A stretch of 39,965 nt of DNA from a virus (Duplodnaviria > Caudoviricetes), in IMG/VR virus record IMGVR_UViG_3300048998_000218, positions 1-39,965 of that record; one strand, written 5' to 3'. Of this stretch, positions 1 through 9,180 are shown piece by piece. Position numbers and translations under genes: made by a program. Each line of letters begins with the position of its first letter. Position 1 is the stretch's first letter. Under the pieces are notes generated by a model, which saw nothing but the letters and a program-made list of their open reading frames with translations, was not told the DNA's origin and made no database searches.

Positions 1-254
1 GCGCTCTCGCCACGAATGAGCCTTTCGACGCCACCCTGAAACGCGTCGATGAGCGTGTCCTGAATAGCCGGGACAACGACCTCAACCACCATGTAGTTGA
101 ACGCGGTGCGAGCATCACCGCCGATGAACGTGTCCTTGAACTGCCGACCAAGCCCCCTCTTTCGCCGAACAGCCTCGGCAGAGGTAACGCGCTCGATCTT
201 CTTCGGCTCGTTTTGCACTCGTGCCTTTTGACTGTTAGCGGGAAATGAATCCAT
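1..254 (-). CDS. Conserved phage hypothetical protein, truncated by the window edge
   Basis: Translated by hand: MDSFPANSQKARVQNEPKKIERVTSAEAVRRKRGLGRQFKDTFIGG...; AAGGA lies upstream; frame stays open to position 1. Confidence 0.75.
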   Translation of the reverse strand, partial: MDSFPANSQKARVQNEPKKIERVTSAEAVRRKRGLGRQFKDTFIGGDARTAFNYMVVEVVVPAIQDTLIDAFQGGVERLIRGES

Positions 255-279
255 GTATGTCCTTGTTGGGGTTTAGGGC

Positions 280-362
280 AAAAAGAGAAGAGCATGAACT
301 TTTTCCATGTCCATTTTAGCCGAACGGTGGCTTCTCACGAAGCCTTATTCGACACTCCTCTC
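280..362 (-). ncRNA. Candidate small structured RNA A (promoter-driven, no ORF)
   Basis: Directly follows the motif at 359-388. 5' GAGAGGAG pairs with 3' CUCUUCUC, then a U5 tract; inner GUCGAA/UUCGGC and GGCUU/AAGCC stems. Confidence 0.55.
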
Positions 363-388
363 ATTACAACCTGTGTTTTTCTCGCGAA
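359..388 (-). promoter_or_regulatory. Cassette promoter-like motif, copy 1
   Basis: TCGCG-N7-CA-N7-TAAT-GAGA on the minus strand. Confidence 0.8.
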
Positions 389-393
389 CGCGG

Positions 394-426
394 AAAAAAT
401 GAGAACCCGGGTTTCGGATTCTCATT
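394..426 (-). terminator. Intrinsic terminator (ATGAGAACC family)
   Basis: AATGAGAATCCG-AAACC-CGGGTTCTCATT hairpin plus T tract just after the stop at 435. Confidence 0.8.
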
Positions 427-434
427 CGGAGGAC

Positions 435-614
435 TTACAACTTGGCGGCCTTGACTCGGCGGTCGATCTCCTTGGCCCAGGCGTGCGAGTTCTTCGCGTT
501 CACCCGAGAGTCGTTGAGCCTGCTGATCGCGGTGATCAGTGCGGCTGCGACTCCCATGGCGAGCACGGGATTCTCTTCGGCCTGACGCTGCAGGTTTTCG
601 AGGAACCGGTTCAT
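435..614 (-). CDS. 59-aa small protein with a hydrophobic segment (not in ORF track)
   Basis: MNRFLENLQRQAEENPVLAMGVAAALITAISRLNDSRVNAKNSHAWAKEIDRRVKAAKL; AAGGAG RBS, own promoter motif and terminator. Confidence 0.85.
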   Translation of the reverse strand: MNRFLENLQRQAEENPVLAMGVAAALITAISRLNDSRVNAKNSHAWAKEIDRRVKAAKL

Positions 615-633
615 TGGGTCTCCTTAGATAGTA

Positions 634-666
634 GGGGTCTCATTAGAAGGAGTGTTTTTACCGCGA
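634..666 (-). promoter_or_regulatory. Cassette promoter-like motif, copy 2
   Basis: TCGCG-N7-CA-N7-TAAT-GAGACCCC, then AAGGAG. Confidence 0.85.
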
Positions 667-670
667 GGAG

Positions 671-700
671 AAAATGAGAACCTGGGTTTCAGATTCTCAC
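671..700 (-). terminator. Intrinsic terminator (ATGAGAACC family)
   Basis: GTGAGAATCTG-AAACC-CAGGTTCTCAT-TTT after the stop at 710. Confidence 0.8.
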
Positions 701-709
701 TTGAGTGAA

Positions 710-979
710 CTACTCGGTGGTGGCGTTCTTCTTGGCCTTTCGGGCCTCGCGCTTGGCGGCGATGAAGTCGGCGGTCTTGTCCACCATCTTGTCCGTGACG
801 GGCTTGAGCTTGTCCGAGACGTACCAACCGGCCAGGTGGCTCGAGATGTCGACGATCATGTCGTCTTCCTCGAACCTGGTGTGGTCGGTGATTGCGGTCT
901 CAGCGAGTGAAGCTGTCTCGAAGTGGATGATGGCTTTGGCGACGTACTTCGCGGCGTTGCGGAGGGTAAAAGCTTCCAT
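710..979 (-). CDS. Hypothetical cassette protein, 89 aa
   Basis: ORF with AAGGAG RBS, own promoter motif and terminator. Confidence 0.85.
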   Translation of the reverse strand: MEAFTLRNAAKYVAKAIIHFETASLAETAITDHTRFEEDDMIVDISSHLAGWYVSDKLKPVTDKMVDKTADFIAAKREARKAKKNATTE

Positions 980-1003
980 CAGAATTACTCCTTAGAGGTA
1001 GTT

Positions 1004-1037
1004 GGGGTCTCATTATAGGCGCTGATTTTTACGCGAA
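1004..1037 (-). promoter_or_regulatory. Cassette promoter-like motif, copy 3
   Basis: TTCGCG-N7-CA-N5-TATAAT-GAGACCCC. Confidence 0.85.
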
Positions 1038-1061
1038 CTGCAGGGAAAAATACAAAAGGTT

Positions 1062-1172
1062 TCCCGGTCCAGGATTCGAACCTGGCGTCTGAAGCACCAC
1101 CATCAGACGAGTGTCTAACCTAACTACCGTTTAGAACTGGTGTAGGGTTCGTAAGTAGCGACACAACCGGGC
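1062..1172 (-). ncRNA. tRNA-like RNA with non-canonical D and anticodon regions
   Basis: Perfect T arm CCAGG-TTCGAAT-CCTGG; CCCGGT/ACCGGG acceptor-like stem; CGTCTGA-N10-TCAGACG arm; GTGTC/GACAC-closed ~54-nt domain where the D arm would be. Confidence 0.7.
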
Positions 1173-1299
1173 ACGTTTAGTGAAATATAGGGCGTAGTGA
1201 GGCACAAGCTTGCCGCGGACTTCCAGGAACGCAGGCGTTGCTGTCGTTGAATATCAGCGCGTTAGCCGCTGATACCTACACTACGTGAGACCCCTCTCT

Positions 1300-1902
1300 C
1301 TAGGAGAGCTTGTAGCGTCCGGTGGCCAGTCCGGACTTCAGTTCGGCAGAATCCATCGCCGACACTTCGGCGCGGGTGAGGACTCGCGGTGTGGCATCCT
1401 GAGTGAGACCGGTCGGATCGTCGTTCTCGGCCTGAAGCTCTGCCACCGCGGCAGCCGTCTCCGGTGCTGGGGTCTTCTCGGCCTGTGCCTTGACCTCTGC
1501 GGCGATCTGCTCGAGGTTGTTGGGGATGATCCCATTGATGAACTCGGCGGAGGCGTTGGCATCTGTGCAGACCTCGAAGATGAGCTGCGAAAATGCCTCC
1601 GTGGCAGCGAACTCCTCCCAGATCTCCTTGGACTTGAGGAAGCGATCGCCGTCCTTCTTGCCGTAAGCACGACGGATGATGTCCTTGAACTCGGCCATGA
1701 TGGCCCGGCCGTCCTCGGAGTCGACGATCTGCTGAAGCTTGGCCTGCATACCCGTGAGCTGCTTGCCGTCCTTGGTGTAGGTGGCCTTGTTCTCCTCCAT
1801 CTCCATCTCGACGAGATCCGCCTTGGAGATATGGAAGTAGTGCTCCTCGGTCACTTCCTGGTTGGTGAACGGGTTGGTGTACGTGATGACCTTCTTTAGC
1901 AA
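1300..1902 (-). CDS. Conserved phage protein, function unknown
   Basis: MLKKVITYTNPF...EEHYFHISKADLVEMEM...IIRRAYGKK pattern recurs in this siphovirus group; AGGAG RBS; strong GC3 bias. Confidence 0.85.
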   Translation of the reverse strand: MLKKVITYTNPFTNQEVTEEHYFHISKADLVEMEMEENKATYTKDGKQLTGMQAKLQQIVDSEDGRAIMAEFKDIIRRAYGKKDGDRFLKSKEIWEEFAATEAFSQLIFEVCTDANASAEFINGIIPNNLEQIAAEVKAQAEKTPAPETAAAVAELQAENDDPTGLTQDATPRVLTRAEVSAMDSAELKSGLATGRYKLS

Positions 1903-2111
1903 AGTTGCTCCTGATTCGGATGTATGTACTGGATAGTTCCGATGGTCTTGCCCCGCGCATCGATGCTCAGCGTGAACTCGGCTGCTTGAATATGCAGGAC
2001 GCTACCGTCCTGAGTAATGCCCAGCGCACCACGTGTTACATCCGCGAGGTCCCCCAAGCGACGACACTGTTCGGGCAGCATCGTCACCTGAGGTCGCTCG
2101 GGAGATGTCAC
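1896..2111 (-). CDS. Hypothetical protein, 71 aa
   Basis: Overlaps both neighbours in operon fashion; GGAG RBS. Confidence 0.65.
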   Translation of the reverse strand: MTSPERPQVTMLPEQCRRLGDLADVTRGALGITQDGSVLHIQAAEFTLSIDARGKTIGTIQYIHPNQEQLC

Positions 2112-2464
2112 TACTCCGTGGTCCTGTGGTAACGGACGACGCCGCGTCGCGAATAGGCGGCGCCGAACTTGTTGATCGCGATGGCGCCCGCGTAAAGCGA
2201 CACCGACAGAGCGAAGAAGCCGATGCCCGTGTCGCTCGTGATGCGGCTGAGAACACGAGGACTGATCATGCGAGTCGTCCTCACCACGTCCTCAACCACC
2301 TCCTCAGCGGCGTCGTTCGCGGCCTCTGCCACGTCGCCCACCTTCTCGGCGGCAACCGGAGCGGCGGCCTTCGCTGCACGCCCGGTGTTCTTGACGGCCT
2401 GTCTACTCTGCCTGGCCGCTCGCGATGCGAGCTCCTGGGCCTCCTGCTTGTCTGCTTCGGACAT
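2111..2464 (-). CDS. Membrane protein with one C-terminal TM segment
   Basis: AAGGAG RBS; hydrophobic stretch GIGFFALSVSLYAGAIAI. Confidence 0.8.
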   Translation of the reverse strand: MSEADKQEAQELASRAARQSRQAVKNTGRAAKAAAPVAAEKVGDVAEAANDAAEEVVEDVVRTTRMISPRVLSRITSDTGIGFFALSVSLYAGAIAINKFGAAYSRRGVVRYHRTTE

Positions 2465-2482
2465 GTACTCTCCTTGGTTGAA

Positions 2483-2737
2483 CTACACGGACGGCTTGTC
2501 GGAAGTCTCGATCACGTCGGTGACGTCGATGGAGGGCTCAGGGTCCTCTTCGGTCTTGGTCTCTCCGGTATTCCTGAGCGCCTCGCGCAGATCCACGATG
2601 AACGCCTTGGTCTCCTCGGAGTCACGGAGATCTCGGATGAGTGCCTTGAGTTCCTCGGTGTGCTCCTGCCCCTTGAGATAGCCGTTGAGGTAACCGACGC
2701 CGTATGCGACGCCCACGACAATGAAGCCTTTGAACAT
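2483..2737 (-). CDS. Small membrane-anchored protein
   Basis: AAGGAG RBS; N-terminal hydrophobic segment, acidic tail. Confidence 0.8.
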   Translation of the reverse strand: MFKGFIVVGVAYGVGYLNGYLKGQEHTEELKALIRDLRDSEETKAFIVDLREALRNTGETKTEEDPEPSIDVTDVIETSDKPSV

Positions 2738-2893
2738 GTACTCTCCTTAGTTTGGGTTGAGGGATTTCATATATGCTAGCCGCGTGCCGGTGAGTGGCAT
2801 CAATGTCCGTATACCGCTAGCTTTCGGTAGCCACATGCCCACCCCAATAAAGGGCCTAACTTACTATGGGTCTACCGAACTTTGGTGCACTTG

Positions 2894-3679
2894 CTAGTAC
2901 CCTCGGATGTAGTCGACGTGCGGGAGATACTTGAAGTCGATGGCGATGCACGGCTTCTGGTCGTGCGAGAGCACCGTCGAGAGCTTCAGATCCACGAGGT
3001 TGTTGACGTTCCAGCCGACGTCATCTGACCACGTCGTTGGCGGTAAGCCGATCTCCTCGTAGAAGAACGAGGCGCTGGCGTAGTTGTGACGGAGGATCTC
3101 CTCGTTGGTCCGGTTGACCGCCTTGTTGATCGCGTCCATCGTGCTGCGGAAATACCGACCGGTCGGCTGATCGAAACAGAGGACCTCTCCCTCCACGATC
3201 ACGATCTGACTTCCGCCGGGCGTGTTGTTCACCCGATCCTGTGCCAGCTCGTCGTCGATCGCCTGGGCCTTCGGGCCGGTGAGCTTCTCCGTGACCTTGT
3301 CCTTGTACTCTCCGAGCTGCTTCTCGGCCAGGCCGTAGGCAGCTGCCAACGCGGCAGCCTTCTGGGCCGACATCCGGTTGGCCAGGATGATGCTGCCGAT
3401 CGTGGCCGATCCTGTGAGCACTGGCGGGATGAAGTGCACTCCCACCAGCTTGACCTTGTCGGTCTTGGACAACGGATCGATCGTGCCGCCGACGTTTGCG
3501 TTCCTGATCCGCTCCTGCTCCTCGACCATGAGAATCTCCGCGGCCTTGAACCCAGCCCTACCAGCCAACACCGCGGTGCCGATCGTTCCCACCACGCCGC
3601 CAGCCGTCAGAAGCGTCGTGGCGTTCTCCTGCAGCAACTGCTGTACGCGCTGCTTTGCATCAGCGAACATCGGATGCAT
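2894..3679 (-). CDS. Conserved phage membrane/coiled-coil protein (DUF6353-like)
   Basis: LLTAGGVVGTIGTAVLAGRA...ALAAAY...LCFDQPTGRYFRS...DDVGW pattern typical of this phage group; AAGGAG RBS. Confidence 0.8.
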   Translation of the reverse strand: MHPMFADAKQRVQQLLQENATTLLTAGGVVGTIGTAVLAGRAGFKAAEILMVEEQERIRNANVGGTIDPLSKTDKVKLVGVHFIPPVLTGSATIGSIILANRMSAQKAAALAAAYGLAEKQLGEYKDKVTEKLTGPKAQAIDDELAQDRVNNTPGGSQIVIVEGEVLCFDQPTGRYFRSTMDAINKAVNRTNEEILRHNYASASFFYEEIGLPPTTWSDDVGWNVNNLVDLKLSTVLSHDQKPCIAIDFKYLPHVDYIRGY

Positions 3680-3706
3680 TCGTGTGTACTCTCCTTTTGA
3701 AATATG

Positions 3707-3799
3707 TCAGTTCTTTGACGCTCTGGCCAACCAACGCTGAATCGCCCAGAGCATCAGGTAGCTGAGCAGCTTGGTGAAGAAGATCCGTGCGAGGATCAC
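3707..3799 (-). CDS. 30-aa hydrophobic microprotein
   Basis: MILARIFFTKLLSYLMLWAIQRWLARASKN; GTG start overlaps the upstream TAG. Confidence 0.45.
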   Translation of the reverse strand: MILARIFFTKLLSYLMLWAIQRWLARASKN

Positions 3800-3972
3800 T
3801 AGCGGCGTCTCATCTCTCGCACGAAGATCCAGACGAACCAGAGTCCGCCCGTGAGCATGACCATGAACACATCGAACAGAAAGTTCAAGCATCCGTACGG
3901 CTTGCGTGCATGACCGTCACCCACGTAGTAGGTGTGCTGGTAGTGGTGATCGTCGGTGAAGATCCTACGCAT
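3799..3972 (-). CDS. 57-aa membrane protein (not in ORF track)
   Basis: MRRIFTDDHHYQHTYYVGDGHARKPYGCLNFLFDVFMVMLTGGLWFVWIFVREMRRR; TGGLW-type TM hairpin. Confidence 0.8.
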   Translation of the reverse strand: MRRIFTDDHHYQHTYYVGDGHARKPYGCLNFLFDVFMVMLTGGLWFVWIFVREMRRR

Positions 3973-4123
3973 CGCGCCTCACCCCCGTCGCTCCGGGGTT
4001 GCGCTTGAGAGCACGCTGCTCGGCAACCTCTCTCGAGGACGCCTTGACCTTGATCGTCCGCGTTATGTTGCTCGCGTAGTACAAGGTGATGTAATACAAC
4101 TGCTTGGCCGCTCTAGCCTTCAC
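3965..4123 (-). CDS. 52-aa basic hypothetical protein
   Basis: GTG start overlapping the upstream gene end; KARAAKQLYYITLYY...VKASSREVAEQRA. Confidence 0.65.
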   Translation of the reverse strand: MKARAAKQLYYITLYYASNITRTIKVKASSREVAEQRALKRNPGATGVRRDA

Positions 4124-4292
4124 TGCAGCCGTCGCAGATCGCGTTGTGATTCCACGTCTCGCGACCACAGAGCTTGATGCATCGCACGGCGTGATCACGC
4201 GGCTGATGCTCGGGGTAGTGCTCTGGGTGATAATCAGACGAACCGTCGTAATCGACGATTGCGCCTTTGACCTCCTCGTTGGGGGTCTCCAT
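4113..4292 (-). CDS. 59-aa protein with a possible Cys4 zinc site (not in ORF track)
   Basis: METPNEEVKG...RCIKLCGRETWNHNAICDGCSEG; AGGAG RBS. Confidence 0.75.
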   Translation of the reverse strand: METPNEEVKGAIVDYDGSSDYHPEHYPEHQPRDHAVRCIKLCGRETWNHNAICDGCSEG

Positions 4293-4348
4293 ACGGTCTC
4301 CTAGTTTGGGGTCTCAAAAATATGACCCTGTGCGTTTAGCACGAGGTC

Positions 4349-4411
4349 AAAAAGAGGACCACCTGTGTAGGGTGATCACGGATCTCTTTTAGGTTAGATC
4401 CTTCCTCTCTC
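4349..4411 (-). ncRNA. Candidate small structured RNA B (three-way junction)
   Basis: 5' GAGAGAGGA pairs with 3' UCCUCUUUU; hairpins GGAUCU/AGAUCC and UCACC/GGUGG; no ORF. Confidence 0.55.
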
Positions 4412-4437
4412 ACTATAGAACGTGTTTTTTTCGCGAA
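4408..4437 (-). promoter_or_regulatory. Cassette promoter-like motif, copy 4
   Basis: TTCGCG-N7-CA-N5-TATAGT-GAGA. Confidence 0.8.
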
Positions 4438-4440
4438 CGT

Positions 4441-4734
4441 TTACGCTTCGCCGTGTTCAGCAGCCACTTCCAGCAACTTCACACGTTGGGAGAGATCGAG
4501 CACACGTCCACCACGAGTTCGCGGAACGTGATTGTTGTCAAGGACACGAGAGACTTGCTCGAGCACTTCTCTTGCGAGTTGGGGACTTCCCAGAATGTTC
4601 TTCTTCTCCTCTTCTTGACGATGTTTCCTCTCGAAATATGCGGCCCAGTAGCGCTCTTCTTCGTCTCGTTCCCTTCGTAGTGTGTCTTGTTTGTAGAGAC
4701 TCTCTGGAGTCACCGGAGGAAAATGTACCAACAT
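4441..4734 (-). CDS. Hypothetical protein, 97 aa
   Basis: Translationally coupled (TAATG) to the upstream gene; GGAG RBS. Confidence 0.75.
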   Translation of the reverse strand: MLVHFPPVTPESLYKQDTLRRERDEEERYWAAYFERKHRQEEEKKNILGSPQLAREVLEQVSRVLDNNHVPRTRGGRVLDLSQRVKLLEVAAEHGEA

Positions 4735-5054
4735 TACTTCTCCTCACTGTCCTTGTGCAACCCACAGTAGTAGCTACCGGGCTCGTTGAAGTTTGGGCAG
4801 TTCTTGCCGTTTGGGCGAATATGGGCGCACTGGAGCATACCATCCTTCATCTTCTCGCCGTACTCGTTGACCTGGTGTTGGAACTCGCGATGACGCTTGA
4901 GTGCAGCCTGCCGATATGTCTCGTTGTGATCCATGATCGTTGCGAGAACGGGCGCACTCAGCTCTAGATCCTCTGCCCCAGGAACTAGTCCAGCGTAGAG
5001 CACGAGGAAATTCGCCAGCTGTTCGTTAGTTGGCTCAGTGTACTCAGCCGCCAT
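4734..5054 (-). CDS. C-terminal CCCH-type zinc-finger protein (paralog 2)
   Basis: QCAHIRPNGKNCPNFNEPGSYYCGLH; TAATG coupling. Confidence 0.8.
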   Translation of the reverse strand: MAAEYTEPTNEQLANFLVLYAGLVPGAEDLELSAPVLATIMDHNETYRQAALKRHREFQHQVNEYGEKMKDGMLQCAHIRPNGKNCPNFNEPGSYYCGLHKDSEEK

Positions 5055-5365
5055 TACTCTCTTTCGTGTCGTTTACAGCGATAACTACCAGGTTGATTGA
5101 AACGAGTACACTGCTCGCCGGTTGGGTGAATATAGCTGCACTGAAGCTCGCCCCGCATCATCTTCTCAATCTCTTGACCCATCTCGTCGCAGAACTTACG
5201 ATGAATGCTTAGCGCGATTCCTCGAAACACAGGATCGTTTGTGATCATCCGTTCTATGAGTACAGGAGTAGTCTTGAGATGTCGAAGCTGTGGATGTTGA
5301 AGCGAGTAGATGGACAGAAAGTTAGCCAAATCCAGATTAGTTGGCGGCTTGTACTCCCAGTTCAT
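5054..5365 (-). CDS. C-terminal CCCH-type zinc-finger protein (paralog 1)
   Basis: QCSYIHPTGEQCTRFNQPGSYRCKRH; AAGGAG RBS. Confidence 0.8.
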   Translation of the reverse strand: MNWEYKPPTNLDLANFLSIYSLQHPQLRHLKTTPVLIERMITNDPVFRGIALSIHRKFCDEMGQEIEKMMRGELQCSYIHPTGEQCTRFNQPGSYRCKRHERE

Positions 5366-5385
5366 TACTCTCCTTCACTGAAGTC

Positions 5386-5535
5386 TCAGTCAAATATCGA
5401 CTTGAGGAGATGCGCGGCTGTGTACGCCACGATGATTGTGATCACAGCCTCGGTGGCCTTGTCAATCAGATCCTCAAGATCTTGGGTTGGGAGCTCGACG
5501 TTGACGTTGATATCTGCGGTGTGGTGATGTTTCAT
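5386..5535 (-). CDS. 49-aa small membrane protein (not in ORF track)
   Basis: MKHHHTADINVNVELPTQDLEDLIDKATEAVITIIVAYTAAHLLKSIFD; AGGA RBS. Confidence 0.7.
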   Translation of the reverse strand: MKHHHTADINVNVELPTQDLEDLIDKATEAVITIIVAYTAAHLLKSIFD

Positions 5536-5542
5536 GTCTTTC

Positions 5543-5740
5543 CTACTGCTGTGCCTCGAGCATGAAGACCGTTCGCTCGCCAGGCCTCGTGATCGGGGTT
5601 ACGACGTATTGATCCGGGTCGCCATCGAGAATGACCTGTGCTTGTCTTTTGGCGGACTCGCGATCGATCGCTGAGACAATTACGCCAATGCTCTCAACGA
5701 ACCTTGACTGACGCTGCACGAGAAAGACGATGTAAGACAA
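5543..5740 (-). CDS. Hypothetical protein, 65 aa
   Basis: TTG start with AAGGGA RBS; fills the gap in the operon. Confidence 0.7.
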   Translation of the reverse strand: MSYIVFLVQRQSRFVESIGVIVSAIDRESAKRQAQVILDGDPDQYVVTPITRPGERTVFMLEAQQ

Positions 5741-5764
5741 TGATCCCTTTCGGTTTGAGGTCTC

Positions 5765-5796
5765 AAAAAATGAGAACCTGTGGTTCAGATTCTCAC
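5765..5796 (-). terminator. Intrinsic terminator (ATGAGAACC family)
   Basis: GTGAGAATCTG-AACCA-CAGGTTCTCAT-TTTTT; near-identical to 671-700. Confidence 0.8.
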
Positions 5797-5804
5797 TTGA
5801 GGGA

Positions 5805-5975
5805 CTACTCGGACTTCTGGATGATGGTCGGATTCAGACTCGCGCGAAGCTTCGAGATAGCGTCAACGATCTGCATGAACTCGGGGGCGTCCGGCTGGAC
5901 ACTCTCGAGATCTTTGCAGAGGCTGTTGATGGTCTTCTCGACGGCTTGGTCAGCGGTGTCGAATGCGTGAATCAT
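5805..5975 (-). CDS. 56-aa helical cassette protein
   Basis: MIHAFDTADQAVEKTINSLCKDLE...; AAGGAG RBS downstream of the motif at 5992-6024. Confidence 0.8.
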   Translation of the reverse strand: MIHAFDTADQAVEKTINSLCKDLESVQPDAPEFMQIVDAISKLRASLNPTIIQKSE

Positions 5976-5991
5976 GTTGTGCTCCTTAGTA

Positions 5992-6024
5992 GGGGTCTCA
6001 TTATAGGCGCTGAAATTTGCGCGA
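5992..6024 (-). promoter_or_regulatory. Cassette promoter-like motif, copy 5
   Basis: TCGCG-N7-CA-N5-TATAAT-GAGACCCC. Confidence 0.85.
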
Positions 6025-6046
6025 GGACAGAAAACTACAACCCGTG

Positions 6047-6214
6047 TTAGCGGGCTGCAGTGTCGGACTTGAACTTCTTGGCGTAGTCCTTGACGACCTG
6101 ACGTGCGTCGTCCATCGTGTGCGCCGCATCCTCGTGGCGACCAAGCTTCTCCTGGATGGAAGACTTGGTATAGAGGGTGTGGAACTTGATGGATGACTTC
6201 AGTGCAGAAAGCAT
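6047..6214 (-). CDS. 55-aa cassette protein (not in ORF track)
   Basis: MLSALKSSIKFHTLYTKSSIQEKLGRHEDAAHTMDDARQVVKDYAKKFKSDTAAR; AAGGAG RBS; TAA stop lies in the terminator loop. Confidence 0.8.
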   Translation of the reverse strand: MLSALKSSIKFHTLYTKSSIQEKLGRHEDAAHTMDDARQVVKDYAKKFKSDTAAR

Positions 6215-6229
6215 GGAATCTCCTTAGTT

Positions 6230-6263
6230 GGGGTCTCACTATAGTCCATGAAACTCGCGCGAA
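6230..6263 (-). promoter_or_regulatory. Cassette promoter-like motif, copy 6
   Basis: TTCGCG-N7-CA-N5-TATAGT-GAGACCCC. Confidence 0.85.
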
Positions 6264-6294
6264 AAAAGAAAAGGACTTCCTTGTCCAGTTCTTT

Positions 6295-6357
6295 CTAGAT
6301 CAGCCAGATGATGATGTAGCCGTGGCCGAAATCCTCGATGCGAGGGTTGGGCTTCAT
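6295..6357 (-). CDS. 20-aa microprotein cassette
   Basis: MKPNPRIEDFGHGYIIIWLI; AAAGGA RBS, own promoter motif and hairpin/T tract. Confidence 0.65.
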   Translation of the reverse strand: MKPNPRIEDFGHGYIIIWLI

Positions 6358-6378
6358 GGTACTTCCTTTCATGGTTGT

Positions 6379-6410
6379 GGTCTCATTAGAGCCCATGAAA
6401 AATGCGCGAA
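6379..6410 (-). promoter_or_regulatory. Cassette promoter-like motif, copy 7
   Basis: TTCGCG-N7-CA-N7-TAAT-GAGACC. Confidence 0.85.
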
Positions 6411-6471
6411 TTGCAGGGAAAAGAAAGAACCCGTGTGGGTTCGATCTTCAGATTCCTTGTGGGAACCGTGA

Positions 6472-6633
6472 CTACTTGATCAGCTTCTTCTCCAGTTCAA
6501 CGCGCTTCTCCACGAGCTCCGTGATCTGCTTGTCGAGCTCTTCGATTTCGGTCGAGATGCTCGCGTTGTGGATCGCGGTAGCTGCGGAGAGAGCGCCGTT
6601 GCCAATGGAGGAAAGGGCGGACTTGATGGTCAT
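6472..6633 (-). CDS. 53-aa coiled-coil cassette protein
   Basis: MTIKSALSSIGNG...EIEELDKQITELVEKRVELEKKLIK; AAAGGA RBS. Confidence 0.8.
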   Translation of the reverse strand: MTIKSALSSIGNGALSAATAIHNASISTEIEELDKQITELVEKRVELEKKLIK

Positions 6634-6649
6634 GGTGTTTCCTTTGATA

Positions 6650-6683
6650 GGGGTCTCATTATAGCCCATGAAATATACGCGAA
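6650..6683 (-). promoter_or_regulatory. Cassette promoter-like motif, copy 8
   Basis: TTCGCG-N7-CA-N5-TATAAT-GAGACCCC. Confidence 0.85.
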
Positions 6684-6725
6684 AAGGAAGAGAAAAACTA
6701 AAGCCCGTGTTTGCGGGCCTCAGCT

Positions 6726-7019
6726 TTATGAGATCTCGGGCGTGCTTTCGAGCAGTTCCAGAAATCCCTCAGTGGTCATCAGAGGAACGTTAGATGCTGG
6801 ATGGCATGACGGATCGAATGGCACATCGTTGAAGTTGCTGATGGCGGGGATCCACGGATAGACCGACGTGAACAGAATCGTCTCACAGCCGTCTTCGGCG
6901 TGATAATCGATGCTGTCACGAAGGTGTTCGATCGTGAAACCGCGCTTGGCGGCAACCTCGATGATGCGCTCGACGTTGTCGTGCGTAAGCATAACGCTCC
7001 CAGGAATGGGCTGGGGCAT
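6726..7019 (-). CDS. Acidic hypothetical cassette protein, 97 aa
   Basis: AAGGAG RBS; terminator GCCCG-CAAACA-CGGGC-TTT at about 6693-6718. Confidence 0.8.
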   Translation of the reverse strand: MPQPIPGSVMLTHDNVERIIEVAAKRGFTIEHLRDSIDYHAEDGCETILFTSVYPWIPAISNFNDVPFDPSCHPASNVPLMTTEGFLELLESTPEIS

Positions 7020-7042
7020 AATGGGTCTCCTTTAGTTTGATA

Positions 7043-7076
7043 GGGGTCTCATTACAAGCGTTGAAATATGCGCGAA
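7043..7076 (-). promoter_or_regulatory. Cassette promoter-like motif, copy 9
   Basis: TTCGCG-N7-CA-N7-TAAT-GAGACCCC. Confidence 0.85.
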
Positions 7077-7119
7077 GAAAAACTGAGAACCCTTGTTACA
7101 GGGCTCTGCAGTCTTGGCT

Positions 7120-7323
7120 CTACTCCGCCAGGGTGGTGGCGGCTGCCTTGAGCGTCTCGAGCTCGACGGACAGCTTGACGGTCCGGTAGTTGAAGATGGC
7201 GGCGGTCATGTTCATGGCGGGCAATGCGATCATTGTCCCCCAGAACAGGGCGGGGCCGTACTTCCTCAACTTGGACTTCTTGGGCTGCTCGTCGGCAGGT
7301 TCGAGAATCTCGTTTTGCAGCAT
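7120..7323 (-). CDS. 67-aa membrane cassette protein
   Basis: AAGGAG RBS; central hydrophobic segment; terminator at about 7078-7112. Confidence 0.8.
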
Positions 7324-7342
7324 AACTGCTCCTTTGGTAGTA

Positions 7343-7375
7343 GGGTCTCATTATAGGCGCTGAAATATGCGCGAA
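7343..7375 (-). promoter_or_regulatory. Cassette promoter-like motif, copy 10
   Basis: TTCGCG-N7-CA-N5-TATAAT-GAGACCC. Confidence 0.85.
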
Positions 7376-7378
7376 GGC

Positions 7379-7506
7379 AAAAAAAAAGAAGGCGACAGTC
7401 CAACGAAAACTGTCTTTAGCAACCTGTCTTATGGTTGCACTCCGGGTGGGGGTTTCTCCCACGCATTCGTGTCTCGGAATAGGGGTTTAGGGCCTATCTT
7501 CTCTCT
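7379..7506 (-). ncRNA. Candidate structured RNA C (four hairpins in a closed junction)
   Basis: 5' AGAGAGAAG pairs with 3' CUUCUUUUU; hairpins AUAGG/CCUAU, UCCG..CGGA with inner GUGGG/CCCAC, GCAACC/GGUUGC, GACAGU/ACUGUC; no RBS-ORF. Confidence 0.65.
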
Positions 7507-7532
7507 ACTATACACTACGAAATACACGCGAA
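7503..7532 (-). promoter_or_regulatory. Cassette promoter-like motif, copy 11 (variant)
   Basis: TTCGCG-N7-CG-N5-TATAGT-AGAG; same spacing as the others. Confidence 0.75.
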
Positions 7533-7567
7533 GACAAAAAGGAAAGCCCGCGTTTGCGGGCCTATCC

Positions 7568-7720
7568 TTAGGCGTAGATCTTGGTGTAACCGGGGACGTG
7601 CTTGGTCTCAGCCAGCTTGGCCTGCGAAGCAGCGATCATCTTGTTGTAGCGGTTGCGCTTGCGGCGCTCCGTACGAATCTCGATGTGCTCCTTGGCGGCG
7701 AGCTTGAGTGAGTAGAACAT
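7568..7720 (-). CDS. 50-aa basic cassette protein (not in ORF track)
   Basis: MFYSLKLAAKEHIEIRTERRKRNRYNKMIAASQAKLAETKHVPGYTKIYA; AAGGAG RBS; terminator at about 7536-7570. Confidence 0.8.
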   Translation of the reverse strand: MFYSLKLAAKEHIEIRTERRKRNRYNKMIAASQAKLAETKHVPGYTKIYA

Positions 7721-7741
7721 TTAGGTCTCCTTGGTTTCAGT

Positions 7742-7774
7742 GGGGTCTCATTATAGGCGTTGAAATATACGCGA
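7742..7774 (-). promoter_or_regulatory. Cassette promoter-like motif, copy 12
   Basis: TCGCG-N7-CA-N5-TATAAT-GAGACCCC. Confidence 0.85.
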
Positions 7775-7776
7775 GG

Positions 7777-7816
7777 GCGACTCAGTATTTGCTTATTATG
7801 CGAGTCAGTATCTGCT
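7777..7816. repeat. 17-bp imperfect direct repeat, 23-bp period
   Basis: gcgactcagtatttgct (7777-7793) and gcgagtcagtatctgct (7800-7816), 15/17 identical. Confidence 0.7.
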
Positions 7817-7856
7817 CTTTTCACCAAAATTCTCCCCCGGGGTTTTTTGGAAAGTG

Positions 7857-7989
7857 AAAAATGAGAACCAATGTCTGCATGGCCTTCTACATCCCTGGGG
7901 ATTTGGGTATTACACCACAGGGTAGCTTGGGTGGAGATGCAGAGGGTTCGTCCGGATTGGTTATGTGGGGACGACTCGCATTGGATCTC
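7857..7989 (-). ncRNA. Candidate structured RNA D
   Basis: 5' GAGAUCCAAUG pairs with 3' CAUUGGUUCUC (one mismatch), then a U tract; inner UCGUCC/GGACGA, UCUGCAU/AUGCAGA and CCCUG/CAGGG stems; no RBS. Confidence 0.65.
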
Positions 7990-8015
7990 ATTAGAGGGGT
8001 TGAAATCTACGCGAA
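7986..8015 (-). promoter_or_regulatory. Cassette promoter-like motif, copy 13
   Basis: TTCGCG-N7-CA-N7-TAAT-GAGA. Confidence 0.8.
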
Positions 8016-8078
8016 GGCAAAAAAAGAGAAACCGTGTTTTCAGCACGATCTCTCTTTCGTCCCTCTTAGGGCGGGTTG

Positions 8079-8360
8079 CTACCGGGGCTTCATGACGAAC
8101 CCAAGCGCTTTCGAGGTGATCACGTTCTCACGCTCGTAGCGGGTCAGCCAGAGGATCCCGAAGATGTTGGCGCCGACGATGAGCACAGTGTCCAGGCTCG
8201 GCAGCTTCAGACGCTCTTCGGTCTTCAGCTTGTGCAGCTTGGTGATGCGCTCAACGACGGCGCCGTACTCTTCGGAGTCGGCTTCTAGCCGATCCAGCCT
8301 TTCGAGTGCGGAAATGATCTCCTCGTCCAGCTTGGATTCGATGTTGCTCTTGATAAGCAT
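8079..8360 (-). CDS. Membrane protein (helical N-domain plus TM segment)
   Basis: AAGGAG RBS; DTVLIVGANIFGILWL...VITSKALGFV; terminator at about 8019-8058. Confidence 0.85.
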   Translation of the reverse strand: MLIKSNIESKLDEEIISALERLDRLEADSEEYGAVVERITKLHKLKTEERLKLPSLDTVLIVGANIFGILWLTRYERENVITSKALGFVMKPR

Positions 8361-8375
8361 ATCTCTCCTTAGGTA

Positions 8376-8409
8376 GGGGTCTCACTATAGGCGATGTTTC
8401 GCCCGCGAA
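8376..8409 (-). promoter_or_regulatory. Cassette promoter-like motif, copy 14
   Basis: TTCGCG-N7-CA-N5-TATAGT-GAGACCCC. Confidence 0.85.
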
Positions 8410-8419
8410 CTCCTACCTA

Positions 8420-8800
8420 CTACGGTTGACGACGTTTGCCCGTACGGTGTCGTGAAGGTAGAGGCTTCTTCTTTTCCTTCTTCACCACCTTGAAACGAGC
8501 TTCGTCCACCTTCTCGATTTCCTCCGGCTGTCCCTCCAGATTGAGGGAATATGTCTTGCTACCGGATTCGAGTTCTTGCACCTCGATGTCGCCGACTCGC
8601 TTGGAGTCGTATTTGGCGGTCGAGATTTGCAACACCACGCCTAGAAACGTGTCCACAGCGATGATCGTGTTGACGACTTCCTGTGCCTTGGGTAGATCCC
8701 AGATCCCCGCCAGGGTGAAGTACAGCGTGGCGAAGGCTGGAAGCACGATCATCGCTAGGAACTTGAGGAAATCGTATAGCCTCGGGCTGCTGATTTTCAT
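8420..8800 (-). CDS. Holin (Dp-1-type)
   Basis: YDFLKFLAMIVLPAFATLYFTLAGIW...VVNTIIAVDTFLGVVLQIST; two TM segments and a basic tail. Confidence 0.85.
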   Translation of the reverse strand: MKISSPRLYDFLKFLAMIVLPAFATLYFTLAGIWDLPKAQEVVNTIIAVDTFLGVVLQISTAKYDSKRVGDIEVQELESGSKTYSLNLEGQPEEIEKVDEARFKVVKKEKKKPLPSRHRTGKRRQP

Positions 8801-8835
8801 CGAATAAGACTCACTTTCGGTCTTGATAGTTGATC

Positions 8836-9180
8836 TCAGATGTTTGGCGGTGGACAGCGAATATTTCTCAGCGCATCCACTGTTCTCTGAGAGTTGGCGA
8901 TCGACAGCTTGATCACGCCAAGCGGAATTTCCTTGGATCCGTTTGGATGATCGATCAAGTATTCTTGGCTGGTTTGGACTCTTGTTGCCGCTTCATTGCG
9001 AAGCGTGCAGAGTCCGTCAGTGTTGTTTCGGGATACGGTGTAGATGTAATAACCAAGGCTAAACAAGCCGAGGTACAACACTACCGTCGCTGTGACGAGG
9101 CGTCGAAGCGACCGTCGAAGTGTCTCCGGCGTCGGCACCTCCTCAGATCCGTTCATTTCGAGCCTCCTAATCAGTAACAT
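8836..9180 (-). CDS. Membrane protein next to the holin (start uncertain)
   Basis: One TM segment; two Cys in the C-terminal part. Confidence 0.7.
   Translation of the reverse strand: MLLIRRLEMNGSEEVPTPETLRRSLRRLVTATVVLYLGLFSLGYYIYTVSRNNTDGLCTLRNEAATRVQTSQEYLIDHPNGSKEIPLGVIKLSIANSQRTVDALRNIRCPPPNI

What the first reader, a model, noticed from the sequence alone, without database searches (positions are those of the whole stretch)
1062..1172. tRNA mimic: perfect T arm and acceptor-like stem, replaced D arm, 10-nt anticodon-position loop
Seen (minus strand): CCCGGT, then a GTGTC...GACAC domain containing GCTAC/GTAGT and GAAC-CCTACACCA-GTTC, then CGTCTGA-TGGTGGTGCT-TCAGACG, CCAGG-TTCGAAT-CCTGG, ACCGGG and T-rich sequence. 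There is no encoded CCA and no variable loop. Established: TTCGAAT in a 5-bp stem is the TpsiC signature, which tmRNA and YrlA-type Y RNAs also use. It is too short for tmRNA and not obviously YrlA-permuted. Inference: a tRNA-like decoy, for example for anticodon nucleases, or a processing element.
Basis: partly seen in the sequence, partly recalled or inferred. Interest (0 to 1): 0.78.

Follow-up and report, generated by a model that had tools for sequence, protein, structure and literature searches.

The report
Glutamine-tRNA look-alike with capped anticodon
A soil phage carries an optional 112-base gene for a folded RNA, likely remodelled from a glutamine tRNA, that keeps the tRNA's upper half but whose anticodon arm is replaced by a hairpin predicted to be capped by a second loop, a layout like phage T4's unexplained RNA C, so it likely acts as a decoy for host proteins that grip tRNA ends rather than in decoding.

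Summary
The element is real and conserved. Neither ARAGORN nor Rfam calls it, and its full layout arose in 0 of 300 shuffles. Twelve soil-metagenome contigs from four studies and one fetched locus carry relatives with compensatory changes. (1) The central hairpin is 9 bp with a 6-nt loop, not 7 bp with 10 nt. (2) The D arm is kept (stem plus GGUWA) but holds a 37-nt insert. (3) The insert's loop is complementary to the central loop, with one double change. Acceptor stem and T arm match a tRNA-Gln(UUG), mostly actinobacterial, at 31-32 of 34 positions, differing at identity positions 1 and 73. The order of parts and the complementary loops match T4 RNA C, but its model hits only the T arm. The gene is one swappable cassette in an array of uncatalogued RNAs of an actinophage-like siphovirus. 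Expression and function are untested. A top-half decoy is my best guess; an anticodon-nuclease decoy is unlikely. Verdict: new variant of a known kind, interest 0.55.

The parts
1061..1172 (-). Whole tRNA-like RNA, tRNA positions 1-73 (112 nt, CCA not encoded)
   Evidence: (aligned relatives stop at 1171-1180 and 1052-1071)
1166..1172 (-). Acceptor stem 5' strand (positions 1-7; position 1 is G, unpaired against A72)
1160..1165 (-). U8, G9 and D stem 5' strand (G9 can pair with 1111 as a fifth pair)
   Evidence: one double change in L040
1123..1159 (-). 37-nt insert in the D loop: 5-bp stem 1159-1155/1127-1123, 4-bp stem 1150-1147/1137-1134, loop 1146-1138
   Evidence: (14 of 14 pairs of the domain kept in L040, 2 double changes)
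1138..1142 (-). CACCA in the insert loop, complementary to the central loop (predicted loop-loop pairing)
1116..1122 (-). D-loop 3' half with invariant GG (G18/G19 equivalent), U and A
1111..1115 (-). D stem 3' strand
1086..1109 (-). 9-bp hairpin with 6-nt loop (1100-1095) in place of anticodon arm and variable loop
1069..1085 (-). T arm, 5 bp with UUCGAAU loop
1061..1068 (-). Acceptor 3' strand (66-72) and discriminator A73
1046..1060 (-). 3' trailer, U-rich
1183..1192 (-). AU-rich spacer that follows cassettes in these arrays (possible cut site, inferred)
1193..1285 (-). Upstream neighbour cassette 'module A', another uncatalogued structured RNA
1286..1308 (-). Cassette spacer repeat, present 1-4 times in related arrays
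1300..1902 (-). phrog_4282 gene (unknown function) that heads the array
1004..1037 (-). Phage promoter-like repeat that closes the array and precedes ORF 710-979
   Evidence: (family D1)

Best explanation
The stretch is a conserved, optional phage gene for a 112-base tRNA-shaped RNA, likely remodelled from a tRNA-Gln(UUG), that keeps acceptor stem, T arm and D-loop GG, has a 9-bp hairpin predicted to be capped by loop-loop pairing in place of an anticodon arm, and likely serves as an uncharged decoy for host proteins that grip the upper half of tRNAs. Shown: the sequence, the pairings supported by covariation, the cassette behaviour and the top-half match to tRNA-Gln. Inferred: (a) it is transcribed at the end of the unit running from the promoter repeat near 4417 through phrog_4282 and module A; (b) host RNase P cuts at 1172, the U-rich trailer is trimmed and CCA is added; (c) the D-loop GG and T loop form an elbow, and the insert folds down beside the central helix to pair with its loop, giving a compact, nuclease-resistant shape; (d) with U1-A72, G73 and the anticodon all gone it is not charged and cannot decode; (e) it titrates enzymes that recognise the acceptor end, T arm or elbow, such as CCA-modifying anti-phage toxins. 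Step (e) is the weakest.
For: Covariation in the central hairpin, 9 contigs of 4 studies: 1108-1087 paired 9/9 with 7 double changes; 1106-1089 paired 9/9 with 4 double; 1102-1093 paired 7/9; 1101-1094 paired 8/9 with 3 double. A tenth contig read from its loose end has 8 stem changes and keeps all 9 pairs. 5' domain: 14/14 pairs kept in L040, 2 double changes. Loop-loop pairing: 5 Watson-Crick pairs, 1.1% by chance; of 7 contigs covering both loops none shows a listed break, one has C-G changed to A-U and one a wobble. D-loop GG, U, A unchanged in those 7 and L040 while the other 3 bulge positions vary; 12 of 12 annotated tRNAs have GG-N1-3-A there. Skipping the insert lifts ARAGORN's best passing threshold from 91 to 93-99. 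Top half equals tRNA-Gln(UUG) at 32/34 positions in 9 and 31/34 in 2 of 11 such tRNAs; positions 1 and 73 differ in all, and G73 and U1-A72 are listed Gln determinants (PMC9976931, passages). T4 RNA C has the same order of parts and an invariant complementary hexamer pair in 5 of 5 homologs. RNase P cleaves acceptor + T-arm models (PMC11143913, passages). toxSAS toxins act on the CCA end and read the acceptor stem (bioRxiv 10.1101/2024.07.05.602228, abstract).
Against: No expression, processing or binding data. The fold is not unusually stable (z -1.1 to -1.5) and the 5' domain alone folds weakly (z +0.94); RNAfold prefers another inner register for L040. L040 gives only two sequences, shuffle control 118/500. 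Two contigs carry a G-to-A change in the central loop whose partner could not be read; one contig has A.C at 1101-1094. The contigs are related, so changes are not independent events. The tRNA-Gln match was found with a pattern fixing 23 of the 34 positions and 6 more follow from pairing, so it could be convergence; D stem and D loop differ from those tRNAs. Acceptor and T-arm variation was mostly unreadable because differences near alignment ends are not listed. With the insert skipped ARAGORN still stays under its cut-off of 100, and other 35-nt deletions reach 95-98. No target protein is identified, and the host is unknown.
Confidence: 0.45

Rival explanations
1. Processing signal: the tRNA-like shape only recruits RNase P and 3' trimming to release neighbouring cassette RNAs from the array transcript, as t-elements or mascRNA do (recalled).
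For: It keeps what RNase P needs (PMC11143913) and sits directly behind other RNA cassettes.
Against: 26 of 27 related gaps examined show no match to it, many with the same neighbour cassettes (several loci are truncated). A conserved insert and loop-loop pairing are not needed for cleavage.
Confidence: 0.2
2. A stable RNA with its own partner (for example a phage protein or the ribosome), in which the tRNA top half serves only for maturation and stability and the insert carries the function.
For: The insert is the best-conserved part against L040 (a 16-nt identical run), more than a passive cap would need. T4 RNA C and D are expressed late, with unknown role (PMC9697503).
Against: No partner gene co-varies with it in the data seen; the top half is also nearly unchanged (0 differences over 1061-1090 in one contig, 3 over 1052-1086 in another).
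Confidence: 0.17
3. Decoy for anticodon nucleases.
For: The central loop starts with GUG, or UUG in 2 contigs, followed by a purine, like a His or Gln anticodon. Phage tRNAs are reported to counter anticodon nucleases (PMC10264068, PMC11555353, search listing only).
Against: 6-nt loop on a 9-bp stem, no U33, loop predicted to be paired. Anticodon nucleases read the 7-nt loop (recalled).
Confidence: 0.07
4. A working but unusual tRNA, with the insert spliced out or tolerated.
For: Near-threshold ARAGORN score once the insert is skipped; unusual tRNAs occur in phages (PMC5389517, passages).
Against: No 7-nt anticodon loop or U33; covariation favours the 9-bp hairpin; Gln determinants at 1 and 73 lost.
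Confidence: 0.04
5. Decaying tRNA pseudogene or attP-like copy of a host tRNA 3' end.
For: The 3' 24 nt equal the 3' end of actinobacterial tRNA-Gln. It is absent from 5 of 5 near-complete relatives.
Against: Compensatory changes in the non-tRNA parts; both acceptor strands present; no tyrosine integrase in the window or 4 relatives (serine integrases not searched; window 68% complete).
Confidence: 0.04

Closest known systems
Phage T4 RNA C (rnaC, species 1 RNA; NC_000866.4 70908-71046)
   Same: Order of parts: acceptor-like stem, large 5' domain, 9-10-bp hairpin with 6-nt loop next to a 5-bp UUCGAAU T arm, no encoded CCA; central loop complementary to a stretch of the 5' domain; role unknown (PMC3014915, PMC9697503, PMC12685909, passages).
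   Different: No sequence kinship beyond the T arm (11.1 bits); 112 vs 139 nt; different loop pair; recognisable D stem and GGUWA; acceptor without U.U pairs; sits in a swappable RNA array of an actinophage-like siphovirus, not in a tRNA cluster.
Actinobacterial tRNA-Gln(UUG) of Amycolatopsis/Actinosynnema (L070-L082)
   Same: Acceptor stem, positions 8-9 and T arm identical at 31-32 of 34 positions.
   Different: G1 for U1, A73 for G73, 37-nt D-loop insert, anticodon arm and variable loop replaced; not called by ARAGORN or Rfam.
YrlA-type Y RNAs (PMC4201824, passages)
   Same: tRNA-like domain with D and T arms and no anticodon; one YrlA is cut by RNase P and gets CCA.
   Different: YrlA has a loop-closed acceptor between T and D arms and lies near Ro60; here the order is that of tRNA and no TROVE gene was found.
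tmRNA tRNA-like domain
   Same: Acceptor + T arm without anticodon.
   Different: No tag frame, no G3.U70, about a third of the length (tmRNA features recalled); no tmRNA call at default threshold.

Membership tests
canonical tRNA | 5-bp T stem with TTCRANY loop | tested here: met
canonical tRNA | D stem and D-loop GG | tested here: met
   loop enlarged by 37 nt
canonical tRNA | 7-bp acceptor stem | tested here: inconclusive
   6 bp plus G1.A72; position 1 varies in relatives (loose ends)
canonical tRNA | 5-bp anticodon stem, 7-nt loop with U33 | tested here: not met
   9-bp stem, 6-nt loop
canonical tRNA | ARAGORN or Rfam RF00005 call | tested here: not met
canonical tRNA | aminoacylation | not testable with these tools
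   Gln determinants at 1 and 73 differ
T4 rnaC family | match to a covariance model of rnaC homologs | tested here: not met
   5-sequence model R1 hits only the 17-nt T arm, 11.1 bits, E 0.11
T4 rnaC family | order of parts: acceptor, 5' domain, hairpin with 6-nt loop, T arm | tested here: met
T4 rnaC family | central loop complementary to the 5' domain | tested here: met
   rnaC 6/6 pairs in 5 of 5, invariant; element 5 pairs
T4 rnaC family | stable RNA made during infection | not testable with these tools
   no RNA data for this phage
YrlA Y RNA | T arm, loop-closed acceptor, D arm order | tested here: not met
   tRNA order with open acceptor end
YrlA Y RNA | encoded near Ro60/Rsr | tested here: not met
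   TROVE 0 of 5 records, window only 68% complete
tmRNA | tag reading frame and G3.U70 acceptor | tested here: not met
8/4 and 9/3 allo-tRNAs (PMC5389517) | long acceptor with 3-4-bp T stem | tested here: not met
   T stem is 5 bp

The most novel reading that the evidence does not exclude
Phages have repeatedly turned tRNAs into anticodon-capped mimics, and this RNA catches the conversion with its parent still legible: tRNA-Gln minus its identity bases, plus a D-loop insert that locks the former anticodon. It is one of about ten RNA cassettes that soil actinophages swap between short repeats like an integron of non-coding RNAs, and it is an RNA anti-defence factor against tRNA-end-targeting toxins, which would also explain T4 RNA C.
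Probability: 0.2. Interest if true: 0.85.

Novelty: new variant of a known kind. Interest (0 to 1): 0.55.

Why it matters
T4 RNA C is a stable phage RNA of unknown role (PMC3014915, PMC9697503). An unrelated family with the same layout and a readable tRNA parent suggests a recurring design (tRNA top half shown, anticodon hidden) and gives a direct test: which host proteins bind such an RNA, and does it rescue a phage from tRNA-end-targeting defences? The surrounding array of swappable, uncatalogued RNAs in a phage group with cultured members is a tractable source of new RNA families. I did not find this RNA in print: Rfam 15, paper searches and 3 of 6 held supplements of PMC10690425 gave nothing; that paper's model files could not be read.

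Tried and rejected
Homolog searches that found nothing: five element patterns in viral contigs (0 matches; 5 matches, all chance by their flanks); a sixth, T arm + acceptor, gave 1 unrelated match; insert pattern in genome contigs (0); blastn of phage isolates (promoter repeat or T-arm pieces only); five near-complete relatives (0 of 5); this scan's notes by place and sequence (none). Expression: no RNA holder listed. Generic promoter scan found none in 300-2000; one terminator-like site against 2.0 expected, not used. ARAGORN at threshold 70 gives 260 calls in the window, uninformative. A pseudoknot between UUAC (1154-1151) or the insert loop and the 1122-1116 bulge was considered: 4 pairs in L040, only 2-4 in the window, and it competes with the D-loop reading; left open. 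Pistol, twister and HDV-like ribozyme readings of the 5' domain were rejected for lack of their catalytic motifs (recalled) and any Rfam hit. An 8-bp acceptor register using the CC at 1059-1058 was dropped once the tRNA-Gln register was found. One search had the rnaC loop columns off by one and was repeated. A tRNA alignment was made but no model built.

Full report
Setting. The window is two-thirds of a siphovirus genome (virus record, 68% complete) with head and tail genes on the minus strand. Its phrog_4282 gene (1300-1902) has relatives in 197 phage records, mostly of Arthrobacter, Gordonia and Streptomyces, so an actinobacterial host is likely but not shown. The finding lies in the gap between that gene and a promoter-like repeat (1037-1004; nine copies in 1-9000).

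Observation. All motifs are present as described and fold as a four-way junction (z -1.07 and -1.54, so stability alone is not evidence). ARAGORN finds no gene; Rfam finds nothing at gathering score and four chance hits at E 0.9-4.9. A lone T arm appears in 46 of 300 shuffles, the whole layout in 0 of 300 (a test designed after the fact).

Relatives. Loci fetched through the neighbour protein gave one homolog among 53 loci, L040:2777-2843 (E 1.5e-7), cut off by its contig end. It keeps 14 of 14 pairs of the 5' domain with two double changes (two sequences only, shuffle control 118/500). Contigs of four soil metagenomes from four studies cover the element. One search lists 12 records; I assigned differences to records by their depth values. 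All listed rows have at least one record 31 or more letters from its aligned end, so I infer that differences nearer the ends are left out; up to 5 per record are unlisted, and acceptor and T-arm variation is largely unreadable. The records are related and some may be pieces of one phage.

Central hairpin. Nine records cover it. Pair 1108-1087 is kept in 9 (7 double changes, 1 wobble); 1106-1089 in 9 (4 double, 1 wobble); 1102-1093, U.U in the window, is G-C in 4, A-U in 2, G-U in 1, U.U in 1 and deleted in 1; 1101-1094 is kept in 8 (3 double), A.C in 1. A further record, read from its loose end, has 8 stem changes and keeps all nine pairs. The arm is therefore 9 bp with a 6-nt loop, not 7 bp with 10 nt, and it is not an anticodon arm.

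D arm. In tRNA numbering 1165 is U8, 1163-1160 pair with 1115-1112 as a D stem, and 1120-1116 read GGUWA, the end of a D loop in form (12 of 12 annotated tRNAs have GG-N1-3-A there). G, G, U and A are unchanged in the 7 well-covering records and L040, while 1117, 1121 and 1122 vary. Skipping the 37-nt insert raises ARAGORN's best passing threshold from 91 to 93-99, still under 100; 35-nt deletions starting at 1163-1155 give 96-99 and those elsewhere 75-95. The D arm is thus expanded, not replaced, and an elbow is likely.

Loop-loop pairing. The insert loop ends in CACCA and the central loop holds UGGUG: five Watson-Crick pairs, matched by 1.1% of random 9-mers. Of 7 records covering both loops none shows a listed break; one changes both sides of the end pair (C-G to A-U, through a one-base deletion whose placement depends on the aligner) and one has a wobble. 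Two other records have G-to-A in the central loop with the partner unreadable. This pairing is a prediction with modest support.

Parent. A scan of 185,579 genomes for T arm + acceptor 3' strand gave 14 matches; 11 are tRNA-Gln(UUG) (9 Amycolatopsis, 1 Actinosynnema, 1 Vicinamibacterales), 1 is called tRNA-Leu and 2 are uncalled. Over positions 1-9, the T arm and 66-73 the element matches at 32 of 34 in nine and 31 of 34 in two. Positions 1 and 73 differ in all, and U1-A72 and G73 are listed as bacterial Gln determinants, with U1-A72 also read by the amidotransferase (PMC9976931, passages). The pattern fixed 23 positions and pairing explains 6 more, so the independent support is the unpaired A72, G9, a 20-nt hit to a phage tRNA-Gln and UUG-G at the loop start in 2 records. 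I put descent from tRNA-Gln at about 0.65.

Cassette. Alignments of the relatives stop at 1171-1180 and 1052-1071 and continue into different flanks. Contigs join across the element, or place it without module A or before a spacer repeat (some joints have short sides). In related phages the same gap holds one to several structured blocks between copies of a short repeat, in varying order; 1 of 27 gaps examined and 0 of 5 near-complete genomes carry this element. None of 20 such loci has an Rfam hit.

How it likely works. The unit from the promoter repeat near 4417 would read through phrog_4282 and module A into the element and its U-rich tail (inferred from orientation). RNase P cleaves acceptor + T-arm models (PMC11143913, passages), so maturation at 1172 and CCA addition are plausible. 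Without anticodon or Gln determinants it would stay uncharged and off the decoding site, yet show an acceptor end and elbow. Toxins that modify the CCA end and inspect the acceptor stem are implicated in anti-phage defence (bioRxiv 10.1101/2024.07.05.602228, abstract; MenT, PMC10435456, listing only). A decoy for such enzymes is my best guess (0.45 overall; about 0.85 that it is a real non-decoding tRNA-like RNA). Rivals: processing signal 0.2, RNA with its own partner 0.17, anticodon-nuclease decoy 0.07, working tRNA 0.04, pseudogene or attP 0.04.

Known systems. T4 RNA C folds with the same order of parts, and in five homologs its central 6-nt loop is the invariant complement of a hexamer in the 5' domain (invariant pairs carry no covariation evidence). 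A model of those five hits only the T arm here, so the element works like RNA C in layout but is not a member. RNA C's role is unknown (PMC3014915, PMC9697503, PMC12685909, passages). YrlA differs in order and Ro60 linkage (PMC4201824, passages). Earlier AI notes of this scan report the same layout in other phages (read after I had reached this reading); they are leads, not support, and they make the layout less unique.

Verdict. Real, conserved, uncatalogued in what I could search; new variant of a known kind; function untested; interest 0.55.

Noticed in passing
window 1193-1285 (-); L010, L011, L012, L013, L021, L022, L024, L027, L030, L037, L040 (x2), L043 (x2): Module A: an uncatalogued multi-stem RNA with a conserved AAACGACAGC junction; 8 of 15 predicted pairs show double changes across 15 copies. 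The core motif also lies behind the same gene in cultured phages GoblinVoyage and JoyLin, so it can be tested at the bench.
   Followed up: partly
gap behind phrog_4282 in L008-L013, L021, L022, L024, L025, L027, L030, L040, L043: Array of swappable non-coding cassettes, about ten recurring block types by eye, separated by a 40-45-nt repeat ending in GGGGTCTCA and followed by an AU-rich motif; order and content differ among phages. No Rfam hit in 20 loci.
   Followed up: partly
window 1286-1294 against 1004-1012 and other promoter repeats: The end of the cassette spacer is the reverse complement of the sequence just after the -10 box of the phage promoter repeat; meaning unknown.
   Followed up: no
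L012:3521-3570: A second T-arm RNA in an array, with the T arm followed by a loop-closed acceptor-like stem (YrlA-like order), though no Ro60 gene was found in that genome.
   Followed up: no
L001:1683-1760, L002:3805-3905, L003:4028-4108, L009:4340-4425, L021:3982-4060: A recurring block (CTCTAC...GTAGAG stem plus a second stem-loop) with visible compensatory changes, often last before the promoter; two metagenome contigs place it right after the tRNA-like element (loose ends).
   Followed up: no
L036:3663-3800: A block that begins like a tRNA 5' half with a D-loop-type motif and closes its own stem about 135 nt later; not called by ARAGORN.
   Followed up: no
window 7740-8000 (-): A 240-nt ORF-free stretch between two promoter repeats, with a 17-nt inverted match to 2268-2284; possibly another RNA or a genome-end signal.
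   Followed up: no
L061:180-660 (Gordonia phage Fryberger): Several unannotated T arms upstream of the annotated tRNA-Asn, suggesting missed tRNAs or tRNA-like RNAs.
   Followed up: no
L069, L071: Amycolatopsis genes that join a tRNA-Leu 5' part to a tRNA-Gln 3' end, perhaps from deletion between tandem tRNAs.
   Followed up: no
L065 (Enterobacter phage IME523): An rnaC homolog that keeps the T stem and loop-loop hexamers but has lost the T-loop sequence, a point against the T loop being essential in that family.
   Followed up: no
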